Source: Ostreococcus lucimarinus (Eukaryota). From it: DNA of 64,000 nucleotides. Shown here one piece after another: positions 7,237-58,791 of this stretch. The position numbers were made by a program, and so were the translations under genes. Numbering within the stretch: the first letter of the stretch is position 1; every line of letters starts with the position of its first letter. The stretch lies in assembly GCA_000092065.1 (NCBI GenBank), contig CP000583.1; one strand, given 5' to 3'. The notes under the pieces were generated by a model. It was given only the letters and a program-made list of their open reading frames with translations. It was not told where the DNA came from and searched no databases.

Positions 7237-8595
7237 CTACACTTGCGTCGGCGCGGCGCCGCGCAGAGGAGGGCTCGTGATGATTTCGAGCTTGCGCTGC
7301 AAGTACGCAGCAGAGACCAAGAACAACGAGCACATAGCAAACATGGCCGTCAGAGGGAACAAAGCCACGTTGTACAAAATAATACAGACGAAGAGGTTGA
7401 GTGGGATTCTGAAGCAGTTCATCACCGTGCTTCTGATTTCCTCGGGAACGTACGTCGCGCGCATCTTCATCATGCTTGGCCAGAAAATTCCAACCAAACA
7501 TTCAAAGACTAGAAACCCGAGCATCGTGATTTGCCCCTCGAGCGTAATCGACTGCCCCGGAGTATAGTTCGCTTGGAACGGGAAAATCTTGAGCACGATG
7601 GGCAACGCCAAGGATGCGGCGGACGCCAAGAAGACGTATTGCATATACTTCTCCGGTCGTAAGTCCTTGTCTCCCAAGAGCTGACCCGCGAAAGATGAAC
7701 CGATCATGCACGCGACCATCATGGTCGCGAAAATCATCCCATGAGGAATGATTTCGTCGTTCGGGCTCAGGGCGGGGGTCCACAAAAAGACGAACGAATA
7801 CATCGCCGCCTCGAAGAGCGACTGCATCGCACCAAGATACAGCACCTTCTTGTCGTTGAAAATGGCATGCTTCGCCGCCGAGAAACTGGCTTCGAGAGAA
7901 ACGTTAGCATTTACGGCGCCTCTATTTTCTGTCCACGTCAAAGCGATGATAACACCACCGATTGCCAAAAACGTAGCCGCGGCGTCAAACGGCGCAACGG
8001 GACCAAAGTTCATATCAGTCACCAAATAGTTCGCCAACAAGCCCGCGACGATCGACACCACACCGTTGCCGATGAAGATCGCTTTTGAAAACGTCCCATT
8101 CAACCACTCCGGGTCGTAGTTCCGAGAGAAGTGTTCGGACACGAGCCAAGATTCGAACGCGGTGAACAACAGCGACGTCGCGATGCCGCCAAAAAAGCGA
8201 CCGAGCATGAGCACGCCGTAATCACTCCAGTGCTTCGTGATGCAGGACGCGATGTACGTGGCGACATATGTTAAACCCGCGAGCTTACGTCCATATCTGT
8301 CCGCTAAACTACCCACGATGGTTCCGAAAATCATACTCGACCCGAAACCAGCGATGAAGAGTTTCCCGATATCTCCGGTGCCGTATCCGTAGTGTTTGTA
8401 CAGCGCGTACACGTACGGTCCTTGCAACCAATCCCCAGCCATCATCAACGCGTACACGACCAAGTAATTGGTCCTAAACGCCAAGAAATTCGCCGGTAAA
8501 CTCGCCCCCTTCCCGCTCGTCGGACGCTTTCGCACCTCGAGCGCCGCGCACACGGACGCGAGGGCGCCGAATGTGAGCACATAAAACGACTCCAT
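7237..8595 (-). CDS. MFS_5-family transporter (molybdate-anion transporter/MFSD5-like)
   Basis: 452 aa, about 12 TM helices. N-terminus MESFYVLTFGALASVCAALE and overall pattern are typical of the MFSD5/MOT2 family. ATG at 8595. Confidence 0.6.
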   Translation of the reverse strand: MESFYVLTFGALASVCAALEVRKRPTSGKGASLPANFLAFRTNYLVVYALMMAGDWLQGPYVYALYKHYGYGTGDIGKLFIAGFGSSMIFGTIVGSLADRYGRKLAGLTYVATYIASCITKHWSDYGVLMLGRFFGGIATSLLFTAFESWLVSEHFSRNYDPEWLNGTFSKAIFIGNGVVSIVAGLLANYLVTDMNFGPVAPFDAAATFLAIGGVIIALTWTENRGAVNANVSLEASFSAAKHAIFNDKKVLYLGAMQSLFEAAMYSFVFLWTPALSPNDEIIPHGMIFATMMVACMIGSSFAGQLLGDKDLRPEKYMQYVFLASAASLALPIVLKIFPFQANYTPGQSITLEGQITMLGFLVFECLVGIFWPSMMKMRATYVPEEIRSTVMNCFRIPLNLFVCIILYNVALFPLTAMFAMCSLFLVSAAYLQRKLEIITSPPLRGAAPTQV

Positions 8596-9665
8596 CGCGC
8601 GCGCGAACCGTCAGCGCGCGAACGACGAAGACGATGCGCGCGCGCTCGATCGCGTCGGTGTTGGCGTCGAGGCGGCGTGTGCGCGCGCGCGCGCGCGTCG
8701 CGCGCGTTCGACGTCAAATGCTCCTCCGAGGACGGGTTTTCGTGAAAACACGCCAGAGATCTCCAGATCTTCGTTTTCACCCTCGAGCGGTTAAATACGT
8801 GACTTGATGGCGAAAAGCCGCCCGCGCCCGAGCCGTCGCGCCGGAGCTTTCTTTGGCATCGCGCGCGCCGAATCCAGGTTGCGCCCTTGGCGTGCGCGCG
8901 ACGCGCGGTGCGACACAACGTGACGTCCGCTCGAAACGAACGCGATGCAATCTTTGACGCACACCCCGCTCAGGTACGACGCACGCGCGACGACGCGCAC
9001 GCGCGACGGCGCGACCGCGACGACCGCGGAACCGCGGACGGTGTTTATCCATCCGCGCGCGGGCGCCATCGGCGATCTCGTAAAATCGCGCGACGCGCGC
9101 GCGCGACGGACGACCGAGGATACTGACAATTGAAAATTTCCTTCTCCAGATCCACGAGCTCGCCGCTCGCGACGCGCCGATCGAAGGCGTCCAGGTGCGT
9201 GACGGACGTAGAACTCGCGCGCCAGCCCGATAAGGAAGGATATCGGGGCTAGACCTCGCGCGCGCGTGCGGGCAGCGTCGAACGCGCGCGCGATGCGGAC
9301 TCGCGATGGAGCGCGGCATCGCACCGTCGGAAATGTTTGCGCCGATGGCGCGCACGCTGGGGAGCATCGCGCGATCGATGCGGGCGTCGTTTGCGTGGGA
9401 TTGGAAACCTGAACGATCGCTTCAATCGACGCTCCTGGCTGGACGCCCAAGGGCGAGTGGGACGACGAGGAGAGAAGAAACGACGACGATGCGGTCGTCT
9501 CGAGAGCGCTCGAATTCAAATGACTAACGCAATGCGCTTGTTTAATCACATCGCAGAGGTGTCGTCGCCACTGCGACGACCGAAGGTCGCAAGACGGCGC
9601 CGCTCGAAACTGGCGGCACGCTGAAGGGTGAAAAAGCGTTCGGTAAGGCTGCGGGCGCCGCGGCC
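8596..9665. promoter_or_regulatory. About 1.07-kb GC-rich divergent promoter island with (CG)n and GCGC-rich tracts between the MFS_5 gene (-) and the LHC-like gene (+)
   Basis: Alternating CG run around 8679-8705 (gtgcgcgcgcgcgcgcgcgtcgcgcgcg). Only arginine-rich low-complexity ORFs on both strands. Confidence 0.4.
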
Positions 9666-10178
9666 ATGACTGGTGCGATCTTCGCCGGTGAACAGTCCCA
9701 GTGGAAGGATCCGCGTTGGAAGAACGGTAACTGGGACCTCGACATGTTCAAGAACGCAGCTGGCGAAGTTGACTGGGATGCCGTGATCGACGCAGAAGTC
9801 GTGCACCGCAAGATGTTGGAGGACAACCCGGCCGTCTATGATGAAGACGGTCTCTTCGATACCTCCATTGTGCCGTGGCAAGTGTGGATGCGCCGATTCC
9901 ATCTTCCGGAGGCGGAGAAGGCGAACGGCCGCGCCGCCATGGTTGGCTACGCGTTTGCGTACCTCATTGACGCCGCCGGCGGCGCCGGTCTCGTTGACTT
10001 GCACAACTCCTTCTTGGGCAAGACTGCCATTTTCGCTACCATCCTTTTCGTCACCCTCGTCCGATCTCTCAAGGACATTGACAACCTCAAGGATCTCGCG
10101 GCTGAAGCTACTTTCTACGATAAGCAGTGGAATGCGTCCTGGGAAGGTGTCGACCGTCCGTCTGAATCGCAGAAGTAA
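9666..10178 (+). CDS. Light-harvesting-like (LIL/OHP/SEP-type) chlorophyll a/b-binding-motif protein; the N-terminal transit peptide may lie on an undetected upstream exon
   Basis: Canonical LHC helix motif PEAEKANGRAAMVGYAFAYLIDAAGG (ExxNGRxAMxG) followed by a second hydrophobic helix. The frame stays open upstream to 9546 with no ATG before 9666. Confidence 0.7.
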   Translation: MTGAIFAGEQSQWKDPRWKNGNWDLDMFKNAAGEVDWDAVIDAEVVHRKMLEDNPAVYDEDGLFDTSIVPWQVWMRRFHLPEAEKANGRAAMVGYAFAYLIDAAGGAGLVDLHNSFLGKTAIFATILFVTLVRSLKDIDNLKDLAAEATFYDKQWNASWEGVDRPSESQK

Positions 10179-10580
10179 ACGCTGAAACGCTTGGCGTGTT
10201 TTCTTTAGGATCGTAGCTGGCTTGCTGAAAGTTTATCGAGCGGAAGTATCGGTGAACTTCAAACAAACATTTTATACAACACATTAATTTGTTACAAACT
10301 CTTCGCATGCGTCATTTGCGTCGTAGGTGACCCCACCGCCGTCTTTGCCCTTTGAGGTGTGCTCCCCAGAAACCACAAAACGTGGCGCTTTGGCTCTGAA
10401 GCACCGCGCGAACCGACCCGGTCGTCGTGCGCGAACGATGACTTACTCACACATACCTTTCGCGCACTGATGCAAGCGCACTTTCCCTCAATCACGAGCG
10501 AGCACCGGCCAACTGCTGTTCGGATTGGGCGCACAAAACACAAGGCGGCACGAAGGCAATCGTCGAGGTTCGTACCGACA

Positions 10581-18300: not shown

Positions 18301-18737
18301 CGCGCGAAGCGTGCGCCGATCTGTCGCGACTTCTGGCGTTCTGTCGAAAACGTCCCGTCGCGGCAAAAGCTGGACGATCGGGCATGTGAAGTAGTGAGGT
18401 GATATAAATAAAAACACTGAAAATGATCGATAAAAAAGAATGTTGTACTTGGGGATGGCCGAGAATCTATGACGTGACAGTGACGACCGGTCAGTTGTCC
18501 GAACTTCCTGCTCGTTCCCGCGCCGCGCGAGCACACGCGAGTCGCACACTCACCGAACTCGGGACCTCCTCGACGTCTGCGGACGTGTCGTGTTTTGATG
18601 TCGTATCGCATCGTTTCGCGACTCGTTCGGTGGGCCCAAACGAGGAATCATACCACTAGACCACCATCCCGTAAAGAACGACCGTTAAGCCTATCAGTTG
18701 AGGATATAGAAATATTGGAAACACATTTGCATGGCGA

Positions 18738-26100: not shown

Positions 26101-26766
26101 TGGGCGCGGAAACAAACTCATGAAATCCTTCAACTTACCAACCTTCGTCGTCGACTCAAACTCTTTCGAACCTTCGCTCTCTCGCTCAACGTCGTATCTC
26201 TTCTGCAAGTCATTCTCAACGCAATCCAGCGCCTCCAGGGCGTCTTCGTTCAATCGAAACAAACAGCTCTCCGAATTTGTCGAGAAACTCGCCTCGCGAA
26301 TCGCTCTTCGCAGCGCTCTTCGCGTCTCGTCTTCATCGACGATCACGGGCGTCTCCATCCTCTCCATCCACCGCGAATCCATCGCTACTACCAATGACTT
26401 ATCGATGCCACCGCGCTTCTTCCCATGATCGACCGATATCTTCACCGGACGCGAAGCCACCGCGCCGAACGCCATCGCTCTCTCGTCTCTCGTCTCGCGA
26501 CCCGTCTCCACCCAATCCATCGTCTCCACGCACTTCTCCACCGGCACGGCGGCGATGATGTCCATCGCCGTCAGCGACGCGCACCGCACTTTCGTCCTCC
26601 CCCCCCCCGTGGCGACGTCATCGAGCGTCACCGACCCACCGCTCGTCTCCGACGTCGCCTCGTTCTCGTCCTCCCCCGCCGTCGTCGCGTCGCCTTCGAT
26701 CGCCCTCGCCTTCGCCTCCCACTTCCCACCCCCGTCCTCGCTCGGTTTCGCCCCGATGTGCGTCAT
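23104..26766 (-). CDS. Large (about 1220 aa) orphan protein with no confident domain assignment
   Basis: Continuous non-repetitive ORF. A stretch (QSKMLIIFPDAMGILSIVRFISKLGTKAVQFDGK...) faintly resembles degenerate SF2/XPF-like helicase folds. ATG tentatively at 26766 (MTHIGAKPSEDGG), because the upstream part of the ORF is Arg/Asp-rich repeat-derived. Confidence 0.45.
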   Translation of the reverse strand: MTHIGAKPSEDGGGKWEAKARAIEGDATTAGEDENEATSETSGGSVTLDDVATGGGRTKVRCASLTAMDIIAAVPVEKCVETMDWVETGRETRDERAMAFGAVASRPVKISVDHGKKRGGIDKSLVVAMDSRWMERMETPVIVDEDETRRALRRAIREASFSTNSESCLFRLNEDALEALDCVENDLQKRYDVERESEGSKEFESTTKVGKLKDFMSLFPRPLETSFAMDEPSLLASPITFLLSMAKKIKVLPWENEIKIDSSCKEYLKNLLFQGRIPEPSTKDPFQAVPTKIAPLICEDTAPRFMENVDPDSMDIALDSKLKTLTTPVEEHTLAVSNDFSSKAKAQMTKKLLNVDDRFVTKPMIVPKIDEEEEEDANVRTDRAMRDVIASVQAVKDRAPALSEWKVAIPNALDTLARFQEEEHTAAATLFREAEMDNDDLDWTWDDMMDKNDEPRTTKEPPKSAPEAIPKPPTLSESLSLSKIEKHKDACLIDFVELDLDPEHTYVIKVLAERYGYISQILPLDIQRAIPRFQVGESTELAHAMKHFANESSSINRHLKNLLCCQSAANLIHVYGIHQAHILMRSYAKDEQDLSDIKSLVENNDVAVERGEFDDHPKLRMIRAYIADLIVTQSKMLIIFPDAMGILSIVRFISKLGTKAVQFDGKQEFKNLHEDDVEDFARAVTLATANVQVLIALEAHIAHEAFPLELFSTCVYYAPSPNALQDLHLLGSSRHAANRFVRVLAMKRGVSIPSEDPEPASSALRHSPYVENNQHAASVVRDEDPNVSPPVQFDGVPRHVVVLNVARQIIKVREQLFGQVERNLLDDGCDVILREFGIDVDACFTVGKQVHAVILIVPEYFVEGLPTQIELFSLVEDLMVAMAHSFVSGTMVFEGDLDFLNIAQTLDRRIHSDAAHMHFSIDLRYSLEDETASMLHEILQPQDGRFSEFSAPMPESRTIEEMELCDMFPLLNPISACALLADEFVCDELQRIGNLSSNTKAYLQRDGYLGCPLDVFGAEEPAKDVPPPYSPRGGAAQERRQVFTERPITEFYSPISKRPRLDEWELESLSLDSPTNTATPHYYQSLHRRNIDTPSPIVDFKTSPTSAPRSLLRSPPAASPRRAPPVNVGAVGGGRLWQPTRTSDGPSTSANMILEKHRQQPEPSLEEFNQMLESYRMPAPPERGRRNSTLDCFDSNRDLTQHRFTRISSSRTQQFPNTWK

Positions 26767-26860
26767 CGCGTCTCGTTTCAAATCATCCCTTCGCGTCGAC
26801 GCGTACCGCATCCTCGTCCGTCGCGCCGTCGTCGCGGTGTGGCCGTCCAGCCGTCGCCCG

Positions 26861-27060
26861 TCCGTCCGTCTCGTCCCGTCTCGGGACGCGAATCGCCGGA
26901 TCGGCGAATCGCCGGATCGCGCGATCGGCGGATCGGCGGATCGGCGATCGCGCGATCGATCGTCCGTCGATCGCGCGATCGCGTCGATCGATCGATCGTC
27001 GATCGACGTCCGTCGACGGACGTCGATCGTCGATCGTCCCGCCCGGCGCGTCGATCGTCC
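26861..27060. repeat. CGATCG-type palindromic microsatellite/GC island in the divergent promoter of the large orphan gene and IF-2
   Basis: cgccggatcggcgaatcgccggatcgcgcgatcggcggatcggcggatcggcgatcgcgcgatcgatcg... Confidence 0.7.
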
Positions 27061-27070
27061 CGCCCGCACA

Positions 27071-29716
27071 ATGACGTCGTCCGCGTCGGCGATGTTTGCG
27101 CACGCGACGACGGGCGCGCGCGGCGCGTCGACGGTGCGCGCGCGCGCGAGGACGTCGGTGACGACGACGGGCGCGCGCGCGACGATCGCGCGCGGCGCCG
27201 GGGCGCGGCGAAGCGCGCGCGCGACGGCCGAGGACGGGCGCCGCGATGGAGGGTTTCGTCTCGGGACGGCGACGACGGACGGATGGGCGCGAGCGCGCGC
27301 GATGCGCGGCGAGGGACGAGAGGACAGAGCGGTGATGACGCGCGCGGTGGCGGACGCGGAGGCGGCGCGGGAGGACGACGATAAAAAGTCGCGCGCGAAG
27401 CTCGTGCGAGGGGCGGACGGGAAGTTTTACCGCGAGGGCTCGGAGGGCGGCGGTCGCGGCGGCCGCGGCGGTCGCGGCGGTCGCGGCGGTGGACGCGGTG
27501 GTGGACGCGAAGGTGGACGAGGTGGATTCGGGCGCGGTGCGCGCGGTGGTGCAGGCGGCCGCGGCGATGGGGGTCAACGAAACTTTAGAAACGCGGCCAA
27601 GCCGAGCGGCGGCGGTCGCGCGGGTCGCGGCGGCCGCGGTGGACGACAAGACTTTCGATTCCAAGACGGTCGCAAACCGGGACGCGGCGGTAGACCAAAG
27701 ATGAATATGAGTGGTGCGAGTGGTAGCGATCAAGTGAAACAGCGACGAGGAAGCAAAGCGGCAAAGAGCGCGCAGCGCAAAAAGGCGCTCGAGGAAAACA
27801 GAGCCGTGGCTGTGGAGATTCTCGAAGTTCCCACGGATGGCATGGCGATCGAAGATCTCACCGAACTTCTCGCCACGACGCAAGCGCAAATTATCAAAAC
27901 GCTTTTCATGAAGGGTATCGCGGTTCAAATGGGCCAGTTGCTCGATAAGGAAGCTGTGATTGCCGTGGCTGAGGATATGGAAGTGGAATGGATAGACGAG
28001 GCTGAACAGGGCGTCGCGACGGCGGCAAAGAAGGTGACGCAGTTCTTGAGCGAAGACGACTTCGACTACTTGGTACCGCGAGCACCCGTAGTTACCATCA
28101 TGGGTCACGTCGATCACGGTAAAACATCGCTGTTGGATTACATTCACAAGTCCAAGGTTGCCGCGGGCGAGTCCGGCGGCATCACGCAAGGCATCGGCGC
28201 GTACCAAGTCAGCACCATGGTTGGTGATGAAGAGAAGGATATTACCTTCCTCGACACTCCGGGTCACGAAGCGTTCAGTGCGATGCGTGCTCGTGGTGCG
28301 CGAGTGACGGATATTGCCATAATTATCGTCGCGGCCGACGACGGCGTTCGACCGCAAACGGAAGAGGCTGTATCTCACGCCCGAGCCGCCGACGTTCCGA
28401 TCATCGTCGCCGTCAATAAAATTGACAAAGAAGGCGCGAACGTCGACCGTGTGCGTGATGAACTATCGCGCATCGGTATCATCAGCGAAGAGTGGGGCGG
28501 GGACGTTCCGTTCCTGCCCATCAGCGCCAAGTCTGGCGAAGGTATCGACGAGTTGCTCGAAACTATTTCTCTCACCGCCGAGCTCGCCGAGCTCGTCGCG
28601 AATCCCGATCGCGAAGCTCAAGGTACGGTCATCGAGGCATTCCTCGACAAACAACGTGGTCCGATGGCGACTGTTCTCGTCCAAGCCGGCACTTTGCGCA
28701 TCGGCGATGCGATTCAAATTGGTGGCGCGTATGGCAAAGTGCGCGCAATGGACGACGCAGATGGCACCAAAGTCGAAGAGGCTGGACCATCTATGCCTAT
28801 TCAAATCATGGGCCTCAACGGCGTTCCAGCCGCGGGTGAAGAATTTACCGTCTACGCGTCCGATACCGCGGCTCGTGACAAGGCTGAGCAAGTCCAAAAT
28901 GAGATTCGCAACAACCGCTTGATTGAGGGCAACGTTGTTTCGCTGAGCAACTTGCCGGGCGATGAGGATGGATTACAAAAGATCAATCTCATCGTCAAAA
29001 CAGACGTTAGTGGTTCTTGCGAAGCAGTCAAGGCTGCTCTCAGTGCGTTGCCTCAAGACCGCGTCCAGCTTCGTTTCCTCATGGCCTCTGCAGGCGAAGT
29101 GAGCGAGAGCGACGTCGATTTGGCTTCTGCCTCCGAAGGGATCATCTTGGCTTTCAATACGCCTTGCAGCGACCGAATCGGCGAGATTGCGAAAAAGAGG
29201 AAGGTTGAAGTACGTACTTACGACGTTATCTACGATCTGGTCGATGAAGTTCGTGCGGCAATGGAAGGCATGTTGAGTTCGATCAAGGAAGAAATACCGT
29301 TTGGCAAGGCGACGTGTAAGGCTGTCTTTGGCGGCGGTAAGGCGAAGGTTGCCGGTTGCGAGGTGACTGACGGTTACTTCCAGTCCAAAAAGTACTTGAG
29401 AGTCACTAGAAGGGGCAAAGAAGTGTTCTTCGGTAAGGTCGGCTCACTTCGTCGCGTCAAGGATATCGTCAAGAAGGTTGAGGCTGGCTTAGAATGCGGT
29501 ATCGGCGCCGATCCCGAGTGGGACGGCTTCAAAGCGGGCGACGAACTGGAGTGCTTGGACTTGGTCGATAAGATTCAAACACTCGAAACTGCGAGTGAAA
29601 TTTTGGCAGAACGTGTTGAAGAATACCAAGCTGGTGAGGCCGAGCGTGAAGCCGCGCGAGAAAAGGCCAAGGAAGGTTACCAGCGACAACAACGACGGGC
29701 CGCTCCGTCAAAGTAG
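27071..29716 (+). CDS. Bacterial-type translation initiation factor IF-2 (organellar, probably chloroplast) with transit peptide and RGG/GAR-rich N-terminal extension
   Basis: GTPase domain VVTIMGHVDHGKTSLLDYI...DTPGHEAFSAMRARG...NKIDK, plus the IF-2 C-terminal domains. N-terminus GGGRGGRGGRGGRGGGRGGGREGGRGGFGRGARGG.... ATG at 27071 (MTSSASAMFAH). Confidence 0.85.
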   Translation: MTSSASAMFAHATTGARGASTVRARARTSVTTTGARATIARGAGARRSARATAEDGRRDGGFRLGTATTDGWARARAMRGEGREDRAVMTRAVADAEAAREDDDKKSRAKLVRGADGKFYREGSEGGGRGGRGGRGGRGGGRGGGREGGRGGFGRGARGGAGGRGDGGQRNFRNAAKPSGGGRAGRGGRGGRQDFRFQDGRKPGRGGRPKMNMSGASGSDQVKQRRGSKAAKSAQRKKALEENRAVAVEILEVPTDGMAIEDLTELLATTQAQIIKTLFMKGIAVQMGQLLDKEAVIAVAEDMEVEWIDEAEQGVATAAKKVTQFLSEDDFDYLVPRAPVVTIMGHVDHGKTSLLDYIHKSKVAAGESGGITQGIGAYQVSTMVGDEEKDITFLDTPGHEAFSAMRARGARVTDIAIIIVAADDGVRPQTEEAVSHARAADVPIIVAVNKIDKEGANVDRVRDELSRIGIISEEWGGDVPFLPISAKSGEGIDELLETISLTAELAELVANPDREAQGTVIEAFLDKQRGPMATVLVQAGTLRIGDAIQIGGAYGKVRAMDDADGTKVEEAGPSMPIQIMGLNGVPAAGEEFTVYASDTAARDKAEQVQNEIRNNRLIEGNVVSLSNLPGDEDGLQKINLIVKTDVSGSCEAVKAALSALPQDRVQLRFLMASAGEVSESDVDLASASEGIILAFNTPCSDRIGEIAKKRKVEVRTYDVIYDLVDEVRAAMEGMLSSIKEEIPFGKATCKAVFGGGKAKVAGCEVTDGYFQSKKYLRVTRRGKEVFFGKVGSLRRVKDIVKKVEAGLECGIGADPEWDGFKAGDELECLDLVDKIQTLETASEILAERVEEYQAGEAEREAAREKAKEGYQRQQRRAAPSK

Positions 29717-29792
29717 AGTGCATGTGCGACATAGATAAAATCAAGTTGAACGAATGTGTATAACTAAAACCAACCATTTTTTACAACGTACT

Positions 29793-32109: not shown

Positions 32110-33020
32110 CGAGAATGTTTTGGATAATCCAACCGCGAGGGAACACGATGTGAGGCGCCGTCGCGGGCGCGCGCGTCGTCGGTCGGTCGACGCACCGACC
32201 GCGCGTTCGTTCGCGTTCGTTCGCGTTCGTTCGCGCTCGTTCGCGCTCGTTCGCGCTCGCGCTCGCCGTCGACCGCGTCGCGCTGTCGCGCCGCGTCCCG
32301 TCGCCGCCGCGTCGCCTCGGCGTCGCCTCGCCTCGCCTCGACGCGTCGGCGGTCGGCGGTCGGCGGTCGGTCGGTCGGGACGCGCGCGCGCGCGGACCGC
32401 GATCGCGATCGATCGCCGCTGTGTGCGCGTCGAAACCGCGATCTCGATCTCGATCGCGCGATCGATAAAAGATAAAAACGCCATCGACGCGAGGGTTCGG
32501 AGGGGAACGACCTCGCGCGCGGACGCCGCACTCGGCGGACGCGGCGCGATGACGCGCGCGTCGAAGCGAAAGGCGGCGGCGCCCGTGGCGACGACGAAAG
32601 CGGGTGCGCGCGGTGCGATGCGCGCGCGATCGCGCGCGCGAGAGACGGGCGCGAGAGACGGGCGAAAAGTCGAACGATGATGGAAACGATGCGTCGCGCG
32701 CGCGCGAACGACGACGCGAACGGGGGGGCGAGGGACGACGAACGGGCGCGCGCGGGCGCGTCGAGCGAAGACTGACGAGCGATTCGCCATCTTGACGCGA
32801 AATAGTGGCGTTGAAAGAGAAAAAGGGCAAGGTAGGCGCGCGATTCGGTCGAGTTCGAGACGCACTTGAAACGGTGCAAATGCGCGTTGAAGGCGAAGAC
32901 GACGACCGATGTCTTGCGGATGCAGCGTCGCGAGGCGCGGTCGCGCGCGAATGGTGTGGGAAAAATATGTGCAAACGCGACGACGACTGACGATTAACGC
33001 GACGAACGCGCGCAGGCATC
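32110..33020. repeat. About 0.9-kb GC-rich intergenic island packed with microsatellites: 10-bp (TCGCGYTCGT)n, 7-bp (GGCGGTC)n, (CG)n
   Basis: Around 32203-32262 tcgcgttcgt x6, around 32347-32378 ggcggtc x4-5, around 32381-32396 (cg)n. Only arginine-rich spurious ORFs on both strands. Confidence 0.7.
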
Positions 33021-34652: not shown

Positions 34653-34838
34653 GCGCGTCGAGCGCGTCGCCGTGTGACGCCGCGCGTTCGGGCAGTTTCC
34701 GGACGGTCGCGTCGTCGTCGCGCGTCGTCGTCACGCGCGTCGTCGAGTCGATTGAATCTGATCTTAATACAACACGTCCCAACGCGGCGCGACGCGCGAC
34801 GCGCGTCGTCGTCGTCGCGCTCGGCGTTTGGTTCGCCC

Positions 34839-35195
34839 TCACTTTCCTACGATGGGATCGAACAACGACTGATACACCAACGCCGCCGGTTGCATCACCA
34901 CCCCGATGAACAACTGGCTCCCCGCGAACACGACGAACTGAAACCACCCGGGCGGCTTGCCCGTGCGCTCGTCCACCGGCCACCACGGCTCCGGGGCGTC
35001 GGGCTTCGGGACGTAGTTGATCAAGTTTTTCGTCGACCCGCCTCGTCCCTTTGATCCCTTTGACGACGACGACGACGTCTTCGTCCCGCCCTTGGACGTC
35101 GTCGCGCGTCGCACCGCGCGCGCGCCGCGTCGCGGAACGCGCGCCGTCGTCGCGATCGCGCGAGGCGGTGCGCGCGCGCGCGCGACGGACGCCAT
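34839..35195 (-). CDS. Candidate small tail-anchored protein (RAMP4/SERP-like?), uncertain
   Basis: 118-aa ORF with a basic S/G/K/R-rich N-terminus, then PPGWFQFVVFAGSQLFIGVVMQPAALVY (compare SERP1 [22 protein letters not shown]). Its ATG shares the palindrome CGCCATGGCG with the divergent RGP1-like ORF. Coordinates are from the ORF track. Confidence 0.25.
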   Translation of the reverse strand: MASVARARAPPRAIATTARVPRRGARAVRRATTSKGGTKTSSSSSKGSKGRGGSTKNLINYVPKPDAPEPWWPVDERTGKPPGWFQFVVFAGSQLFIGVVMQPAALVYQSLFDPIVGK

Positions 35196-36645
35196 GGCGT
35201 CGCGAAGTGCAGACCGTTCGCGTCGCGTTCGCGTCACGTCGCGACGCGACCTCGACGGCGCGGCGACGATGACGGCGTCGACGGTGCGGATAGAGATGGA
35301 CGCGCGCGTCGGCGCGGGCGATCGCGCGCTGCGCGCGTTCGCGTCGTCGAGCGGGCAAAGTCGAGGCGCGAGGACGCGCGGGACGGTGACGACGACGAAC
35401 GATGACGACGACGACGACGACCCGCGGTGGGTGGTGTGCTCGGGACGACCGTTTCGCGGACGCGTGCGCGTTATCGCGGACGCGAACGCGCTCGCATCGT
35501 TGGTCGTGGAGCGGGTGACGGTGGAGTGGGTGGGACGCGAACGCGTGGGCGCGGAGGAGCGAAGCGTCGCGCGGTCGCCGCCGGGCGAGGTGGCGCGCGC
35601 GCTGACGCTCGAGCCTGGAAGCACGGTGGGGCTGAAGTTTGGCATTGATTTACCTCCGGGATTAGCGCCGAGTTTTCGAGGCGAGCACTCGAGGTATTGG
35701 TATCGCGTGACGTGCAAGGCGACGACGGCGAGCGGGGAGACGCTCGAGGCGAGCGCGCCGTTGACGGTTCGCGCGGGGGATTGGGATCTTGAACGCCGGG
35801 GAGAAGATGACGGTGAATTGTGTGACGATGTGGGCGATGATGATGATGTAGGCGAGATGCGAGAGACGTACAGCGCGCGTGATTTAACTGCGCCGTGGAT
35901 ACACATCGAGGACACCGTGCCGCCCGAGTCGCCGCGATTCAACGGTTCACTAGCGTCGCCTCGCGCTTTGCAGATGTGGGGAGACGTCGAACCGCAGGTG
36001 AGGACACCTCGCGAAAGCTCGACACCGCAAGCGGGCGAAGGATCGGTGTTCACTCCGCAATCGCACGGGCAGAGAAAAAAATCAAAGGCGTACGTCGTGA
36101 GCATGGGCGAGGATCGACTCGTCAAGGTGACGCTGCGCAAGCCCGCACCTAAGTGCGCGATTGGGGGCGAAGTGGCGGGTATACTCGACTTTACGTGCGC
36201 CGAACCTGGAAAAGCGCGAGCGTCCCATGTGCTCATTACGCTCGAGTCGAGTGAAATTATACACGCAGAGGCCAAGACGGTGCACGGCGGCAAGCCGCCG
36301 GTATATAGGAAAATTTGGGTACAAACGCACGAGCGAGTCGAGCATCTCAATACCTCGAATTTCGCTCTTAATTTACCTGCAAATTCCCCTGGAAGCTTTC
36401 GAACATCAAAAGTTGAGCTCAAGTGGCAGCTCAGATTCGAAATTACGTCAGTTAAGAAGACTCCGGCAGGAGAATTCGCGGCGTTTTTCAAAGGCCAAAA
36501 GCACCAGAGCGAGATTTCGACGCTCGAGTGGATACTTCCTCTCGACGTGGGTACAGATTGGCTGACTAACGTTACGAAAATACCCAAGATTAGCAGTTCG
36601 TCAAAGATTCGGAGAGAGTCATCGTTAGTTGCGATGCATGATTAG
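35194..36645 (+). CDS. RGP1-like / arrestin-fold hypothetical protein
   Basis: C-terminal two-thirds is non-repetitive (VSMGEDRLVKVTLRKPAPKCAIGGEVAGILDFTCAEPGKARASHVLITLESSE...ELKWQLRFEITS). The N-terminus overlaps GC-rich low complexity, and the start at 35194 (MASRSADRS) is tentative. Confidence 0.4.
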   Translation: MASRSADRSRRVRVTSRRDLDGAATMTASTVRIEMDARVGAGDRALRAFASSSGQSRGARTRGTVTTTNDDDDDDDPRWVVCSGRPFRGRVRVIADANALASLVVERVTVEWVGRERVGAEERSVARSPPGEVARALTLEPGSTVGLKFGIDLPPGLAPSFRGEHSRYWYRVTCKATTASGETLEASAPLTVRAGDWDLERRGEDDGELCDDVGDDDDVGEMRETYSARDLTAPWIHIEDTVPPESPRFNGSLASPRALQMWGDVEPQVRTPRESSTPQAGEGSVFTPQSHGQRKKSKAYVVSMGEDRLVKVTLRKPAPKCAIGGEVAGILDFTCAEPGKARASHVLITLESSEIIHAEAKTVHGGKPPVYRKIWVQTHERVEHLNTSNFALNLPANSPGSFRTSKVELKWQLRFEITSVKKTPAGEFAAFFKGQKHQSEISTLEWILPLDVGTDWLTNVTKIPKISSSSKIRRESSLVAMHD

Positions 36646-39113: not shown

Positions 39114-39180
39114 CTATCGCGCGCCGCGTCGCGCGGCGTCGACGCGCGTCGCGTCGTCGCGCGCGCGCGCGACATCCAAT

Positions 39181-39300
39181 CCGTCACCACGAAACCCCGT
39201 CCCGCGTCGCGCTCTTCGCGTCACCACGAAACCCCGTCCCGCGTCGCGCGTCGCGTCACCACGAAACCCCGTCCCGCGTCGCGCTCTTCGCGTCGCGAAC
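39181..39300. repeat. About 36-bp tandem repeat x3 in the divergent promoter between COG2 and the downstream hypothetical gene
   Basis: gtcaccacgaaaccccgtcccgcgtcgcg(ctcttcgc/cgtcgc) repeated three times. Followed by (GACGCGG)3 and a (GAC)7 run ending at the ATG at 39590. Confidence 0.75.
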
Positions 39301-39589
39301 GGGCGAGTCGACCCGACGTCGACGCGCGCGCGCGCGTCGGCGCGTCGGCGCACCGGCGCGCGGCGCCGACGCCGCGTCTCGACGGCGCCGCGTCTCGACG
39401 GCGACGCGCCGACGCGCCGACGGCGCCGACGCGCGACGACCGTCGAGGGCGCGCGCGAACGCGCGCGGGCGAGAACCCGAACGCGCGAGAACCTGAACGA
39501 ATCGTCGCGGGGCGTCGAACCCGCGGACGCGGGACGCGGGACGCGGGACGGCGCGGACGACGATCGGAACGACGACGACGACGACGACG

Positions 39590-42182: not shown

Positions 42183-42440
42183 CTCACTAGAATCTACGCG
42201 CGTCGTAGTACATTTGTTTGACACCGTCTTCCGCGCCTGCGCCAAGTAAAAACAAACTCACGTCGTCAGCGGTCGAATCGGAGCACAGACTTAAAAATCG
42301 ACCCGCGAGCGAATGAACGAAGAAGCCTCATCATTTTCGAACAGGTTTGGCATCAAACGCGCCGTCGTCGTAAAAACGTCAACGCATATTCTGTTCTAGT
42401 AGCTGTGTTGTGCATCATCGGCTTTCGTCGTTCGCGCCTT

Positions 42441-42464
42441 TCGCGTCGTCGCGCGTCGCGTCGT

Positions 42465-42495
<31 letters not shown>

Positions 42496-42510
42496 TCGCC
42501 TCGCCTCGCA
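42441..42510. repeat. (GCGTCGC)n heptanucleotide microsatellite upstream of the WDR55-like gene
   Basis: cgcgtcgcgtcgtcgcgcgtcgcgtcgcgtcgcgtcgcgtcgcgtcgcctcgcctcgc. Confidence 0.75.
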
Positions 42511-42731
42511 TCGACGCACCTTTCCGTAGACGCATCGCCACCGCGCGCGTCGCGCGATGCCGTCGTCGCCCGTCTCTGTTCCGTGAAAAAGCGCACCGGC
42601 GGCGGCGGCGAACGGGACGATCGCGCGTCACTCAGCGACGCTCGACGCGCGAAACGCGGGATACGGTGAAACGCGCGTCAAAAACCTCGGTCGTAGCCTC
42701 GCGAGCGCGCGTGATCGACGCGAAAGCTGCG

Positions 42732-55670: not shown

Positions 55671-56847
55671 TCACATCGGCACGTCTTCGACGTCTTCAAC
55701 TTTACCGTCATATTCTGGCTCTTCCACGACTGGTTGTTGTTCGTCCGATTCCGGTAATGCCGCAGTTGGATTTGTCTCGGTGGCTGGTTCGATGAGCGCC
55801 GCGGGGTGATCGCCCGAGACTTCCACTTGCACGGTGTGCGACTTGTTCGCTGATTCGTCGCGGTCGGCGGAGACGGTCAAGACGCCGTCAGCGCACGAGG
55901 CGCGAATGCTGTGGAAATCGATGTTTCGTGGCAAGCTTTGCTGAAACACGGCACGACCGTGAGAAGTTGCGATATTGATGTGAAGCATACGGTCGGCGGC
56001 CAAGCGGCAAGTGACCTTGTCGGCGGAGACGCCAGGCACGGATCTTCGAACCAAGGTGACGTTTTCCTTTGTAGAATCTTCCTCGACGACAGAGTTCACA
56101 CTGGAGACGATGATATCCATGGGAATAATCGCATGCGGATCCGCCATCTTAATGTTCAAAAGACCGTGGCGCACGGTGACGTCAATGTGCTTCACCTCGA
56201 GATCTGTCGGCAAGTTTTTAAACGTCTTGGCGAAGGTGCCAAACGTCTTCGAGTCGCCCCGAACGACCAACATATCCTCCGGTTTGTGCAAAGTCACGGT
56301 GATATCGCGTTCGCCAAAGCCCGGCACGCTCAAAGTTATCGTGCTCTCATCACCATCGTCGTCGGTTTCCATGTCTTCCTCGCCCTCCGCGATCGCCGCG
56401 CGCGCCGTCGCGTTGATGGGCACCCGAACGGCTTCCGACGTCTTCTTTAGCACCGCGATTCTCAGAATGCCATCGATGCACGACGCCTTGGGCGTGACGC
56501 TCATGTCGATGTATTTCGTCGGCAAGCCGAGCTCGGTCATCGAACGCTCGCCCGCGCTCACGCAAAGCTTGGCGTTCCCCCGGGCGTCCGTCGTCACGTG
56601 GACGTGGACGTCCTTCGCCGCCAGTCCCGGCGCGTGCGCCGAAATCAAAAATCCTCTTTTCGTCTCTTCCACCTTCGCGCGCCCGATCGCCCCTCGCATC
56701 GCGCGCATCGCGCGTCCATCTCGCACAAAATTGAAGTTCCCCTCGCCGACGTCTCGCATCACGTGCTCAAACATCGAATCGACATCGCTCGCCGCTCGCA
56801 TCATCGCACCCATCGCACCCATCGTCGGCATCATCGGCCCGAGCATC
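55671..56847 (-). CDS. Protein with three tandem Hsp20/alpha-crystallin-like domains and an acidic tail
   Basis: Three ACD-like modules (GFLISAHAPGLAAKDVHVHV...; ITLSVPGFGERDITVTL...; VTLVRRSVPGVSADKVTCRL...GVLTVSA). ATG re-anchored to 56847 (MLGPMMPTMGAMG); the upstream part of the 808-aa ORF is antisense to NFS1. Confidence 0.5.
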
Positions 56848-57161
56848 TTTTCCCTTGTTCTTGTTCTCTTTGTTTTCGTCCTGCGCCGTACGTCGAGTAC
56901 CGCGTGTGTTTGTTTTTTCGCGTTCGATTCCTCGCTCGCGCGCGTGTGACTTCGCGTCGAAGTCGCTGTGTTGCGTGTAGTTGTGACGCCGCGTCCTATG
57001 CGCGCGCGCCGTTTCGAGTCCTCCTCGCGTCCAACGCCCCTTGACGAGTCACGAATCATCAAAGACCCCCCTCGATTCTCGCGTAGTTTACTCGCGAACG
57101 TTCTAGAATCGTCGAGAATGTTCGCCGACGCCGCACTGCGCGAGGGCACCCCGCGCGCGAC

Positions 57162-58610: not shown

Positions 58611-58791
58611 CAAGCTCGCGCGCGCGTCATTTTTCGTAGAATTCAATTAGTTCAGTTCATGTTATCATCACCACGTTTTGTTCGTAATATTCCTAAAAGT
58701 CTTGTATAAAAAGTTCGCGCTACTGGCCGAGCGCTCGGCGTCTAATATTCGTATTGTTAAACGTTCGCTTGGTAATCGACACCGTCGTTTA

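What the first reader, a model, noticed from the sequence alone, without database searches (positions are those of the whole stretch)
8596..9665. Promoters are CpG/microsatellite islands while 3' flanks are AT-rich; strongly polarised intergenic composition
Every long intergenic spacer that sits 5' of genes is extremely GC-rich. These are 8596-9665, 26767-27070, 32110-33020, 39114-39589, 42183-42731 and 56848-57161. They are built from short tandem motifs: (CG)n, CGATCG palindromes, a 10-bp TCGCGYTCGT unit repeated 6 times, (GGCGGTC)n, (GCGTCGC)n and a G8 run at 22198-22205. In contrast, 3' flanks (10179-10580, 52395-53068, 58611-58791) are AT-richer and often carry TGTAA. The (CG)n tracts are prone to Z-DNA and the G-runs to G-quadruplexes. 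This looks like a genome-wide promoter architecture rather than random drift. It also generates the many arginine-rich phantom ORFs on both strands.
Basis: seen in the sequence. Interest (0 to 1): 0.5.

Follow-up and report, generated by a model that had tools for sequence, protein, structure and literature searches.

The report
GC-rich gene starts, AT-rich gene ends
In this stretch of the tiny marine alga Ostreococcus lucimarinus, DNA is very GC- and CpG-rich around gene starts and AT-rich just after gene ends, a real and strong gradient that most resembles the 5'-to-3' GC gradient of grass genes and is probably a by-product of biased DNA repair and missing methylation, not a purpose-built promoter element.

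Summary
The window is Ostreococcus lucimarinus CCE9901 nuclear DNA, with about 42 genes in 64 kb. The core observation holds. Spacers between diverging genes average 68% GC, tandem spacers 56% and converging spacers 38% (p=2.5e-5). The same ranking appears in three other Ostreococcus lineages.

These are not promoter-confined islands. GC peaks at the start codon and decays over about 600 bp into coding sequence: GC3 falls from 0.79 to 0.56. Two 5' introns are also GC-rich, and short genes are GC-richer.

About two thirds of the focal "spacer" 8596-9665 is two small exons and two introns of a mis-annotated ELIP-like gene. Only 8596-8944 is intergenic.

CpG is over-represented everywhere (observed/expected 1.5-1.9), so these are not vertebrate-type CpG islands. 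No G-quadruplex motif exists in the window. Tandem CpG-rich arrays are real, enriched ninefold at 5' ends, and vary in length between wild strains.

TGTAA is the published poly(A) signal of this species.

Single loci from sister genera show no comparable 5' GC enrichment: it is absent in a Bathycoccus-like contig and weak or not evident in Micromonas and a related contig.

The most likely cause is a 5'-anchored bias: GC-biased gene conversion, escape from 5mC deamination and a transcription-strand asymmetry. This makes it a new member of a known kind, of moderate interest.

The parts
7237..8595 (-). MFS_5 (molybdate-transporter-like) gene, left neighbour of the focal region. Its 5' end faces the island.
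   Evidence: Exact match to XP_001416912 of O. lucimarinus CCE9901. Pfam MFS_5/MFS_1 on the metagenome gene calls. Codon score +0.23.
8596..8944 (.). True divergent intergenic spacer (two promoters plus 5' UTRs), 349 bp, GC 0.67, CpG observed/expected 1.94, 21.8 CpG per 100 bp.
   Evidence: Bounded by the MFS_5 start codon and exon 1 of the ELIP-like gene.
8681..8706 (.). (GC)n microsatellite. It contains the longest alternating CG run in the window (17 bp) and differs in length between wild strains.
   Evidence: TRF period 2, 12.5 copies. Deletions of 2 and 4 bp at 8681-8682 and a 2-bp insertion at 8635 in metagenome strains. Run length.
8945..8973 (+). Exon 1 of the ELIP-like gene (MQSLTHTPLR...), missing from the reference protein model.
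   Evidence: The spliced model 8945-8973 / 9150-9194 / 9557-10178 translates to 231 aa. 228 of 231 residues are identical to the transcript-derived protein P0010.
8974..9149 (+). Intron 1 (176 bp, GT...AG), GC 0.67, CpG observed/expected 2.13. It contains the CG-rich tandem array at 8976-9038.
9150..9194 (+). Exon 2 of the ELIP-like gene (part of the transit peptide).
9195..9556 (+). Intron 2 (362 bp, GTGCGT...CAG, with a TGACTAAC branch-like motif), GC 0.63.
9557..10178 (+). Exon 3 of the ELIP-like gene. The reference model XP_001416624 starts at the internal ATG at 9666.
8791..9549 (-). Phantom ORF (252 aa, 15% Arg) called by prokaryote-style gene finders inside the focal region.
   Evidence: Called in L001/L002/L004 with no Pfam hit. 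No Pfam hit here. Codon score -0.18. Composition.
10179..10580 (+). Tandem spacer. The half next to the ELIP-like gene's 3' end has GC 0.46. The half next to the following gene's 5' end has GC 0.59.
26451..27700 (.). Largest GC segment (GC 0.72). It spans the divergent spacer 26767-27070 and the 5' coding ends of both flanking genes (a 1221-aa protein of unknown function on the - strand, chloroplast IF-2 on the + strand). It includes (CGCGATCG)14 and (GCGGCGGTC)5.
   Evidence: TRF coverage is 69% in the spacer vs 24% in shuffles.
32110..33020 (.). GC-rich (0.68) spacer between PAP2 (-) and the Myb gene (+). It holds the 10-bp unit x5.8 and the 7-bp unit x4.7. One extra 10-bp unit is present in some strains.
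   Evidence: Coding potential at 33022-33355 suggests further Myb 5' exons.
34653..35268 (.). GC-rich (0.69) region between RNase PH (-) and Rgp1 (+). It contains a small conserved ORF at 34839-35195 (-).
39114..39589 (.). The most extreme spacer: GC 0.77, 29.6 CpG per 100 bp, 80% tandem repeats including a 37-bp unit x3. It carries 35-, 72- and 99-bp length differences between strains.
42183..42731 (+). Tandem spacer from the protein kinase gene to the WD40 gene. The terminator-side half has GC 0.52 and the promoter-side half 0.70. It holds (TCGCG)14 with a 15-bp length difference between strains.
56847..57161 (.). Divergent spacer between HSP20 (-) and cysteine desulfurase (+). GC is only 0.59 and there are no tandem repeats. 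The GC peak lies inside the cysteine desulfurase 5' coding region (57051-57450, GC 0.71).
58611..58791 (.). Convergent (3'-3') spacer, GC 0.43. It represents the AT-rich class (13 spacers, median 66 bp, mean GC 0.38).
29717..29792 (.). Typical short convergent spacer, GC 0.33. A TGTAA lies 8 nt after the stop of the - strand gene.

Best explanation
The feature is a compositional gradient anchored at the 5' ends of genes, found in the four Ostreococcus lineages examined. It is not a discrete promoter element.

Shown:
- G+C and CpG density peak around the start codon and decay over about 600 bp into the gene, at synonymous sites and in introns.
- The stretch just after the stop codon is AT-rich. 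Spacer composition therefore follows from which gene ends flank the spacer.

Inferred mechanism, three superimposed processes:
1. A fixation bias toward G/C concentrated where chromatin is open at gene starts. The most likely form is GC-biased gene conversion at promoter-proximal recombination sites, as proposed for grasses, yeast and birds.
2. Protection of CpG from 5-methylcytosine deamination. Published data show that CG methylation is nearly absent at the start codon (~6%) but covers ~31-33% of CG sites in gene bodies in O. tauri.
3. A transcription-strand asymmetry that enriches G on the sense strand over the first ~600 nt.

The 3' ends lack these inputs. They sit near the AT-biased mutational equilibrium (~37% GC measured in O. 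tauri) and also carry A/T-rich poly(A) signals (UGUAA). The CpG-rich micro- and minisatellites are a by-product: replication slippage or unequal exchange in low-complexity DNA. They make these regions length-polymorphic and produce arginine-rich phantom ORFs.
For: Organism and gene map.

Orientation dependence: divergent 0.68, tandem 0.56, convergent 0.38 (p=2.5e-5). Tandem spacers are also polarised within themselves.

The gradient extends into genes:
- GC3 falls from 0.79 to 0.56 and GC2 from 0.53 to 0.39 with distance from the ATG.
- 5' introns have GC 0.63-0.67.
- CDS length vs GC3 has rho=-0.51, p=0.001.
- Genes with a divergent neighbour have higher GC3 over the first 100 codons than genes with a tandem neighbour (0.79 vs 0.71, p=0.019).

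Methylation signature: CpG observed/expected falls from 1.80 to 1.42 along coding sequence, and TpG/CpA rises from 0.77 to 0.98. This matches the published methylation profile (bioRxiv 10.64898/2026.07.10.737489).

Not methylation alone: at 4-fold sites outside any CpG context, GC still falls from 0.69 to 0.55 (Spearman p=3.6e-6).

Strand asymmetry: sense-strand GC skew is about +0.2 over the first 600 nt. At CpG-free 4-fold sites G falls from 0.47 to 0.23 while C rises from 0.22 to 0.32.

A force against mutation pressure is needed: the mutational equilibrium GC is 36.8% vs 59% observed in O. tauri, and gene conversion is suspected (PMC5455958). The site-frequency spectrum fits GC-biased conversion, and chromosome GC correlates with recombination rate (PMC5498103). 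Convergent spacers here average 0.38.

Low constraint and fast turnover:
- SNPs per kb: 4.9-7.0 in divergent spacers, 3.9 at 4-fold sites, 1.3-1.9 in coding sequence.
- Indels per kb: 3.2 in divergent spacers, 0 in convergent spacers, 0.13 in gene bodies. All are whole repeat units.
- Repeat units differ between species while GC is maintained.

Lineage dependence: the pattern is strong in 4 Ostreococcus lineages. It is absent in a syntenic Bathycoccus-like contig and weak or absent in Micromonas loci, although CpG observed/expected is 1.4-1.6 in all of them.
Against: Gene conversion is strand-symmetric, but the CpG-independent part of the gradient is carried entirely by sense-strand G. C actually rises along the gene. 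Conversion therefore cannot be the whole story and may be the minor part.

No recombination map, methylation data or polarised substitution data were available for this window. The SNP sample (153 sites, 3-4 extra haplotypes) is too small to test a weak-to-strong fixation bias. Per-site counts only lean the expected way.

The Bathycoccus-like and Micromonas comparisons rest on one locus each, with imperfect gene models. The identity of L016 is inferred only from GC content and synteny.

Conservation of composition across four Ostreococcus lineages is also what selection on composition would produce.

Genome-wide validity was tested on about 64 kb plus about 50 kb of orthologous DNA, not on a whole genome.
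Confidence: 0.55

Rival explanations
1. Selected promoter architecture. The CpG/(CG)n-rich tracts are functional promoter elements: unmethylated, nucleosome-excluding and able to form Z-DNA or R-loops. They would define transcription starts in a genome whose spacers are only ~200 bp. Their composition would be maintained by selection, a convergent analogue of vertebrate CpG-island promoters.
For: Composition is maintained in four Ostreococcus lineages despite sequence turnover. CG methylation is depleted and 6mA is enriched at the start codon in O. tauri (bioRxiv 10.64898/2026.07.10.737489). Sense-strand GC skew of +0.2 downstream of gene starts is, from my own knowledge (paper not read here), the sequence signature of R-loop-forming unmethylated CpG-island promoters in humans. 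Alternating CG runs are 23 times denser in divergent spacers than in gene bodies.
Against: The GC excess is not confined to promoters. It extends through introns and about 200 codons of coding sequence at synonymous sites. Divergent spacers are at least as polymorphic as 4-fold sites, and whole repeat units come and go between strains that are 99.7% identical. Some divergent spacers lack the feature: 18301-18737 (GC 0.53) and 56847-57161 (0.59, no repeats). The single syntenic Bathycoccus-like locus examined has AT-rich 5' spacers. There is no G-quadruplex motif in the window.
Confidence: 0.2
2. Classical CpG-island logic alone. Gene bodies are CG-methylated and lose CpG, and with it GC, by deamination. 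Unmethylated 5' ends keep theirs. The whole gradient would be a methylation footprint.
For: CpG observed/expected falls from 1.80 to 1.42 and TpG/CpA rises from 0.77 to 0.98 along coding sequence. At NCN 4-fold sites the CpG-forming G falls from 78% to 45%. The published methylation profile has the same shape (bioRxiv 10.64898/2026.07.10.737489).
Against: GC at 4-fold sites outside any CpG context still declines (0.69 to 0.55, p=3.6e-6). CpG is over-represented (1.4-1.5) even in methylated gene bodies, so there is no net depletion. Convergent spacers are AT-rich yet have CpG observed/expected of 1.9, and intergenic DNA is reported to be poorly methylated (12%). The Bathycoccus-like and Micromonas loci have a similar CpG excess but no 5' GC peak.
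Confidence: 0.1
3. Transcription-associated mutational asymmetry as the main driver. Strand-specific damage or repair, or R-loop exposure of the non-template strand near the transcription start, would enrich G on the sense strand at 5' ends. Gene conversion would be minor.
For: The CpG-free component of the gradient is entirely sense-strand G (0.47 to 0.23), replaced by T and C. Sense GC skew is +0.2 for ~600 nt and then decays to ~0, and third-position skew falls from +0.26 to 0. Mutation-accumulation lines show different GC-to-AT bias and rate in coding vs intergenic DNA, with an effect of transcription level (PMC5455958).
Against: The untranscribed or upstream halves of divergent spacers are the GC-richest DNA yet show almost no skew (+0.03). 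A strand-symmetric GC-raising force is therefore also needed. The asymmetry could also reflect position-dependent codon preference.
Confidence: 0.15
4. Protein-level cause. N-terminal targeting peptides and low-complexity Ala/Arg/Thr-rich N-termini demand GC-rich codons, so the 5' GC-richness would be a consequence of amino-acid content.
For: The first 50 residues are enriched in Ala (15.3% vs 10.0%), Arg (9.6% vs 6.3%) and Thr (8.4% vs 5.0%). GC2 is also raised at the 5' end.
Against: The strongest gradient is at synonymous 4-fold sites (0.83 to 0.58). Non-coding spacers and introns share the GC-richness. The amino-acid shift is more simply read as a consequence of regional composition.
Confidence: 0.03

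Closest known systems
5'-to-3' GC3 gradient of grass/monocot genes (Wong et al. 2002; Glemin et al. 2014; Clement et al. 2014, PMC4316631)
   Same: GC3 is highest at the 5' end and declines along the coding sequence. Introns and untranslated regions share the trend. Short genes are GC-richer (rho=-0.51 here). The proposed cause in grasses is GC-biased gene conversion at recombination sites near transcription starts.
   Different: Here the genome is 13 Mb with ~200-bp spacers and few introns, so the gradient determines spacer composition according to gene orientation. CpG is strongly over-represented. The CpG-free part of the gradient is strand-asymmetric. GC3 bimodality was not tested.
Vertebrate CpG-island promoters
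   Same: CpG-dense, GC-rich DNA at gene starts, often shared by divergent gene pairs. It is reported to be unmethylated, whereas gene bodies are CG-methylated (O. tauri data). Sense GC skew is positive downstream of the start. CpG decay products (TpG/CpA) increase in the methylated gene body.
   Different: There is no CpG-depleted background: observed/expected is 1.4-1.9 everywhere, and 82% of all 200-bp windows pass the island criteria. Gene bodies here have more CpG per 100 bp (10.5) than I recall for human islands (roughly 8-10, from memory, not checked). Methylation in these algae is reported to be confined to linker DNA between nucleosomes (Huff and Zilberman 2014, read only through citing papers), not blanket. 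From my own recollection (not checked) the enzyme is DNMT5. The tracts are largely hypervariable tandem arrays.
Promoter-proximal recombination hotspots with GC-biased gene conversion in PRDM9-less eukaryotes (yeast, birds, plants)
   Same: This predicts GC enrichment centred on nucleosome-depleted promoters that is stable over evolutionary time. GC here is maintained across four Ostreococcus lineages while the sequence turns over.
   Different: No fine-scale recombination map exists for this region. The strand asymmetry at CpG-free sites is not predicted by conversion.
UGUAA poly(A) signal of green algae (Chlamydomonas; O. lucimarinus in PMC6413133)
   Same: TGTAA is present on the sense strand shortly after the stop in 26% of genes here, against a published 30.4% of O. 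lucimarinus transcripts.
   Different: None. This part of the finding is already known biology.
Orientation-dependent intergenic properties in Ostreococcus (Piganeau et al. 2009, J Mol Evol 69:249)
   Same: [quoted passage not shown]
   Different: The paper itself could not be read here. I cannot say whether it describes the polarity, the extension into coding sequence or the repeats.

Membership tests
Vertebrate-type CpG island | Formal criteria: length >=200 bp, GC >=0.5, CpG observed/expected >=0.6 | tested here: met
   All listed spacers pass (GC 0.59-0.77, observed/expected 1.8-2.15). So do 82% of all 200-bp windows in the window, so the test does not discriminate.
Vertebrate-type CpG island | Stands out against a CpG-depleted (methylated, deaminated) genomic background | tested here: not met
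   CpG observed/expected is 1.54 in coding sequence, 1.42 in distal coding sequence and 1.91 in AT-rich convergent spacers.
Vertebrate-type CpG island | Unmethylated while flanking gene bodies are methylated | not testable with these tools
   Literature only. In O. tauri, 5mCG is ~6% at the ATG, 31-33% in gene bodies and 12% in intergenic DNA (bioRxiv 10.64898/2026.07.10.737489). Bisulfite data for O. lucimarinus exist (SRR847306) but could not be mapped here.
Grass-type 5'-3' genic GC gradient | GC3 declines monotonically from the 5' to the 3' end of the coding sequence | tested here: met
   GC3 is 0.79, 0.74, 0.69, 0.66, 0.64, 0.61, 0.59 and 0.56 over successive codon bins. GC at 4-fold sites falls from 0.83 to 0.58.
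Grass-type 5'-3' genic GC gradient | Non-coding transcribed DNA (introns, UTRs) follows the same gradient | tested here: inconclusive
   Only two verified introns, both at a 5' end, with GC 0.67 and 0.63. No 3' introns were available for contrast.
Grass-type 5'-3' genic GC gradient | Short genes are GC-richer than long genes | tested here: met
   Spearman rho=-0.51, p=0.001, n=38.
GC-biased gene conversion at promoter hotspots | Recombination rate peaks at transcription starts | not testable with these tools
   No fine-scale map. Chromosome-level evidence exists only for O. tauri (PMC5498103).
GC-biased gene conversion at promoter hotspots | Weak-to-strong variants favoured over strong-to-weak near gene starts | tested here: inconclusive
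   Minor-allele polarisation gives 10 weak-to-strong vs 12 strong-to-weak in divergent spacers, 0 vs 5 in convergent spacers and 21 vs 33 in gene bodies. Numbers are too small and there is no outgroup.
GC-biased gene conversion at promoter hotspots | The effect is strand-symmetric (G and C rise together) | tested here: not met
   At CpG-free 4-fold sites G falls from 0.47 to 0.23 along the gene while C rises from 0.22 to 0.32. Spacers themselves are symmetric (skew +0.03).
R-loop-prone GC-skewed promoters | Positive GC skew on the non-template strand just downstream of the transcription start | tested here: met
   Sense GC skew is +0.11 to +0.22 over 0-600 nt after the ATG and about 0 upstream. 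R-loop formation itself was not tested.
G-quadruplex-forming promoter | Motif of four G runs of at least 3, with loops of 1-7 nt | tested here: not met
   Zero matches on either strand in 64 kb. There is a single G8 run at 22199-22206.
Z-DNA-prone (CG)n tracts | Alternating CG runs of about 6 or more dinucleotides | tested here: inconclusive
   36 runs of >=10 bp, the longest 17 bp, at 2.8 per kb in divergent spacers vs 0.12 per kb in gene bodies. Whether such short runs adopt Z-DNA in vivo was not tested.
Green-algal UGUAA poly(A) signal | TGTAA on the sense strand shortly downstream of the stop codon | tested here: met
   Present in 11 of 42 genes within 200 nt. This is 6.4 times the window frequency and 2.3 times the expectation from flank composition. 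The published figure for this species is 30.4% (PMC6413133).

The most novel reading that the evidence does not exclude
Ostreococcus may have evolved true functional analogues of vertebrate CpG-island promoters. These would be unmethylated, GC-skewed, (CG)n-rich tracts that exclude nucleosomes or form R-loops or Z-DNA, and so mark transcription starts in a genome with almost no intergenic space. Their hypervariable repeat number would tune expression between strains. The lineage-specific gain, present in Ostreococcus and absent in the Bathycoccus-like contig, would make it a natural experiment on how such promoters arise.
Probability: 0.12. Interest if true: 0.65.

Novelty: new member of a known kind. 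Interest (0 to 1): 0.38.

Why it matters
1. Annotation. GC-rich 5' regions yield long arginine-rich phantom ORFs that prokaryote-style gene callers report as proteins, for example 8791-9549. They also hide real short 5' exons: the ELIP-like gene lacks 61 N-terminal residues in the reference.

2. Genome evolution. Ostreococcus offers a very compact system in which three forces can be separated by gene orientation and distance from the start: a GC-raising force, methylation-linked CpG decay and a transcription-strand asymmetry. Sister genera, sampled here at single loci, appear to lack the 5' peak and could serve as a contrast.

3. Convergent spacers sit near the measured mutational equilibrium while 5' regions are about 30 GC points above it. 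This gives a direct read-out of how strong the non-mutational force must be.

4. The length-polymorphic CpG arrays are ready-made strain markers for metagenomic population studies.

Tried and rejected
- Nucleosome-scale periodicity of CpG or GC density. Autocorrelation and power spectrum of the window show no peak near 170-180 bp.
- RNA genes hidden in long spacers. There are no Rfam hits at gathering score and no tRNAs.
- A dispersed repeat or mobile-element family shared by the GC-rich segments. Only short multi-register low-complexity matches were found. The segments share CpG-based 8-mers such as CGCGCGCG, CGACGACG and GCGCGTCG in 14-15 of 16 segments.
- G-quadruplex motifs. None.
- Cross-species alignment of orthologous GC-rich spacers. 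Long alignments at ~60-65% identity are probably driven by low complexity and were not used as evidence of conservation. Only the difference in repeat units is reported.
- SNP polarisation by minor allele. Too few sites to test a fixation bias.
- Literature. Piganeau et al. 2009 and Huff and Zilberman 2014 are not held in the library. A search for "GC gradient" plus Ostreococcus returned nothing. One search failed on a term that was too short.
- The low-GC, non-recombining outlier-chromosome region. I could not retrieve a locus from it. That comparison would have been the sharpest test of gene conversion.
- Large "deletions" of more than 1 kb. These are end artefacts from aligning shorter contigs and were excluded.
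Full report
**Origin of the window.** Three proteins encoded here are identical to Ostreococcus lucimarinus CCE9901 proteins: XP_001416624, XP_001416911 and XP_001416912. They lie on a 982,987-bp chromosome. The same DNA occurs at 99.6-99.9% identity in many marine metagenome contigs.

**Gene map.** I combined the gene calls and Pfam hits attached to those contigs, my own Pfam scans and a codon-usage log-likelihood score trained on Pfam-supported genes. The score separates real genes (+0.05 to +0.30 per codon) from phantom ORFs (-0.13 to -0.28). This gave 42 genes in 64 kb. An automatic annotator built on the same score recovered all 42 and none of the phantoms.

**Checking the observation.** The window has GC 0.564 and CpG observed/expected 1.60. 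All 19 segments with GC >=0.67-0.68 lie at gene 5' ends. Spacer GC depends on flanking orientation:

| Spacer class | n | Mean GC |
|---|---|---|
| Divergent (5'-5') | 12 | 0.68 |
| Tandem | 16 | 0.56 |
| Convergent (3'-3') | 13 | 0.38 |

- Divergent vs convergent gives Mann-Whitney p=2.5e-5.
- Inside tandem spacers the promoter-side half is GC-richer than the terminator-side half (0.60 vs 0.52, p=0.0065).
- Tandem-repeat coverage is 23% in divergent spacers, 11% in the first 300 nt of genes, 5% in tandem and convergent spacers and 2.6% in gene bodies.
- Coverage exceeds dinucleotide-preserving shuffles in 8 of 11 regions. The exceptions are the focal region (8.3% vs 3.0%, with 6 of 100 shuffles reaching it), 56848-57161 (no repeats) and 49751-50200 (1 of 100 shuffles reached it).
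- Phantom ORFs are 15-30% arginine.

Several particulars are off:
- Two of the three cited "AT-rich" 3' flanks have near-average GC (0.525 and 0.542).
- One divergent spacer, 18301-18737, has GC 0.53.
- Region 56848-57161 has GC 0.59.
- The G8 run is at 22199-22206.
- No G-quadruplex motif exists in the window.

**The focal region is mostly not intergenic.** A transcript-derived protein from the same species complex (P0010, 231 aa) is 61 residues longer at the N-terminus than the reference model. A GT-AG spliced model with exons 8945-8973, 9150-9194 and 9557-10178 reproduces 228 of its 231 residues. So 8596-8944 (349 bp, GC 0.67) is the true divergent spacer. Region 8974-9149 is intron 1 (GC 0.67) and 9195-9556 is intron 2 (GC 0.63). 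These 5' introns are as GC-rich as the spacer.

**A gradient, not an island.** GC peaks in the 100 bp on either side of the ATG (0.64-0.65) and declines to about 0.53 by +600 bp. The only sharp trough is the 100 bp after the stop codon (0.47).
- Within coding sequence, GC3 falls monotonically from 0.79 (codons 1-50) to 0.56 (beyond codon 600). GC2 falls from 0.53 to 0.39.
- Short genes are GC-richer (rho=-0.51, p=0.001).
- Genes with a divergent neighbour have higher GC3 over the first 100 codons than genes with a tandem neighbour (0.79 vs 0.71, p=0.019).
- N-termini are enriched in Ala, Arg and Thr. The synonymous and non-coding trends are the strongest, so this shift is best read as a consequence of composition.

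**Dissecting the gradient.**
- GC at 4-fold sites falls from 0.83 to 0.58.
- CpG observed/expected falls from 1.80 to 1.42, while the deamination products TpG/CpA rise from 0.77 to 0.98.
- This matches published methylation in O. tauri: 5mCG is ~6% at the ATG, 31-33% in gene bodies and 12% in intergenic DNA, with a 6mA peak at the ATG (bioRxiv 10.64898/2026.07.10.737489). O. lucimarinus is reported to have the same linker-restricted pattern (cited in that preprint and in PMC5728721).
- At 4-fold sites that cannot be part of a CpG or its decay product, GC still falls from 0.69 to 0.55 (p=3.6e-6). This residual is strand-asymmetric: sense G falls from 0.47 to 0.23, C rises from 0.22 to 0.32 and T rises from 0.11 to 0.25.
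- Sense GC skew is about +0.2 over the first 600 nt of genes and about 0 in spacers.

At least three components are therefore visible: a strand-symmetric GC excess in spacers, a CpG-linked component and a sense-strand G component.

**Not a classical CpG island.** CpG is over-represented everywhere: coding 1.54, divergent 1.93, convergent 1.91. CpG per 100 bp is 20.8 in divergent spacers, 17.0 in the first 300 nt of genes, 10.5 in gene bodies and 9.7 in convergent spacers. 82% of all 200-bp windows meet the Gardiner-Garden criteria.

**Population variation.** I compared 3-4 further haplotypes per region. SNP rates here exclude sites within 15 bp of an indel, except the 4-fold figure, which is uncorrected. 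Before that exclusion the divergent-spacer rate is 7.0 and the gene-body rate 1.9.

| Region | SNPs per kb | Indels per kb |
|---|---|---|
| Divergent spacers | 4.9 | 3.2 |
| Tandem spacers | 2.1 | 2.1 |
| Convergent spacers | 3.7 | 0 |
| 4-fold sites | 3.9 | not computed |
| Gene bodies | 1.3 | 0.13 |

The indels are whole repeat units: one or two GC dinucleotides at 8635 and 8681, one 10-bp unit at 32257, 35 and 72 bp in the 37-bp array at 39182-39210, 99 bp at 39342 and 15 bp at 42441. The 5' spacers are therefore not strongly constrained and their arrays are actively unstable. The 3' spacers show no indels.

**Other lineages.** Orthologous regions from three other Ostreococcus lineages (COG2 proteins 61-67% identical; L011-L013) show the same ranking: divergent 0.71 (n=9), tandem 0.61 (n=13), convergent 0.38 (n=12). 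Divergent and convergent classes do not overlap (p=7e-5). Their repeat units differ from those here.

Loci found through cysteine desulfurase orthologues behave differently:
- Micromonas pusilla CCMP1545 (L014) and a related contig (L015), both GC 0.69, have divergent spacers no GC-richer than genes. Only short convergent spacers are somewhat AT-richer.
- An unidentified relative (L017, GC 0.58) shows weak polarity (0.61 vs 0.47) and no GC3 gradient.
- A syntenic Bathycoccus-like contig (L016, GC 0.49) has AT-rich 5' spacers (0.31 and 0.45), very AT-rich 3' spacers (0.23 and 0.29) and no GC3 gradient.

CpG observed/expected is 1.4-1.6 in all of these. These are single loci with imperfect gene models. 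They suggest that AT-rich 3' ends and CpG excess are common to the order, while the 5' GC peak is particular to Ostreococcus.

**Mechanism.**
- Mutation-accumulation work gives a mutational equilibrium GC of 36.8% in O. tauri against 59% observed. Those authors invoke selection or GC-biased gene conversion (PMC5455958).
- Population data fit conversion, and chromosome GC rises with recombination rate (PMC5498103).
- Convergent spacers here average 0.38, close to that equilibrium. The 5' regions are about 30 points higher. A GC-raising force must therefore be concentrated at gene starts.
- The closest precedent is the 5'-3' GC3 gradient of grasses. It is attributed to conversion at recombination sites near transcription starts and likewise makes short genes GC-rich (PMC4316631).
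- I take conversion plus escape from 5mC deamination as the main causes. A transcription-linked strand asymmetry is superimposed. Slippage in the resulting low-complexity DNA generates the arrays.
- This mechanism is inferred, not shown. The strand asymmetry argues that conversion is not sufficient, and selection on composition is not excluded.

**Known versus new.**
- TGTAA at 3' ends is the published poly(A) signal of this species: 30.4% of transcripts (PMC6413133), against 26% of genes here.
- Hypomethylation at gene starts is published.
- I found no description of the extension into coding sequence, the strand asymmetry, the near-equilibrium 3' spacers or the apparent absence of the peak from the sister-genus loci. 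The literature check was limited.
- In Chlamydomonas and Volvox the 5' UTR and upstream 200 nt are the GC-poorest regions (PMC3887541). Ostreococcus is therefore the opposite of chlorophycean algae and resembles monocots.

**Verdict.** The interpretation as purpose-built CpG-island, Z-DNA or G4 promoters is only partly supported. It is best filed as a new member of a known kind, a 5'-anchored compositional gradient, and is of moderate interest.

Noticed in passing
window 8945-10178 (+): The reference protein XP_001416624 (170 aa, "possible early light inducible protein") is a truncated model. The gene has two 5' introns and encodes 231 aa including a probable transit peptide. The spliced model matches a transcript-derived protein at 228 of 231 residues.
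   Followed up: yes
window 19420-19517, inside the coding sequence 18738-19712 (+): A perfect 48-bp (16-codon) tandem duplication lies inside a protein-coding gene of unknown function. Wild strains differ by one whole unit. The alignment splits this difference into 8+40 bp or 29+1+18 bp.
   Followed up: partly
window 52395-53068: This convergent spacer is unusually long (674 bp against a median of 66 bp) and has average GC (0.54). It contains an internal (CG)n tract at 52472-52502, a 10-bp repeat at 52958-52987 and a TGTAA doublet on the + strand at about 52997-53008. It could be a long 3' UTR of the cyclin gene or an unannotated, possibly non-coding, transcript. The 204-aa ORF called there has no coding signal.
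   Followed up: partly
window 33022-33355 (+): There is clear coding potential (+0.27 to +0.31 per codon) in two + frames upstream of the annotated Myb-domain gene. This suggests additional 5' exons. The PAP2-Myb spacer is over 1 kb in all three Ostreococcus lineages where it could be measured.
   Followed up: partly
window 34839-35195 (-): A small ORF (118 aa, no Pfam hit) has positive coding score. In the orthologous region the other Ostreococcus loci align at 66-79% nucleotide identity. It is probably a real small gene or exon inside what looks like a spacer.
   Followed up: partly
window 49429-50045 (-): The 2-oxoglutarate dehydrogenase E1 gene appears to be split. An upstream ORF (49617-50045) carries the 2-oxogl_dehyd_N domain in related contigs, which implies an intron of roughly 165-190 bp.
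   Followed up: no
window 40097-42182 (+): The ORFs 40097-40885 and 40770-42182 (protein kinase) overlap in different frames. In other lineages they are called as two adjacent genes. I treated them as one unit in the map, so one tandem spacer may be missing.
   Followed up: no
whole window; L014-L017: CpG is over-represented 1.4- to 1.6-fold in every Mamiellales locus examined, including methylated gene bodies. At NCN 4-fold sites, G (which forms a CpG) is the commonest base even far from gene starts (45%). Something actively favours CpG in these genomes.
   Followed up: partly
L016 (Bathycoccus-like, GC 0.49) and L014/L015 (Micromonas-like, GC 0.69): The sister-genus loci lack the 5' GC peak and the GC3 gradient but keep AT-rich 3' spacers. 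In L016 convergent spacers fall to 0.23-0.29 GC.
   Followed up: partly
window, all 41 gene junctions: Gene orientation alternates often: 12 divergent, 13 convergent and 16 tandem junctions. Convergent spacers are tiny (median 66 bp, some 12-37 bp), so the 3' ends of opposing transcripts must abut or overlap.
   Followed up: no
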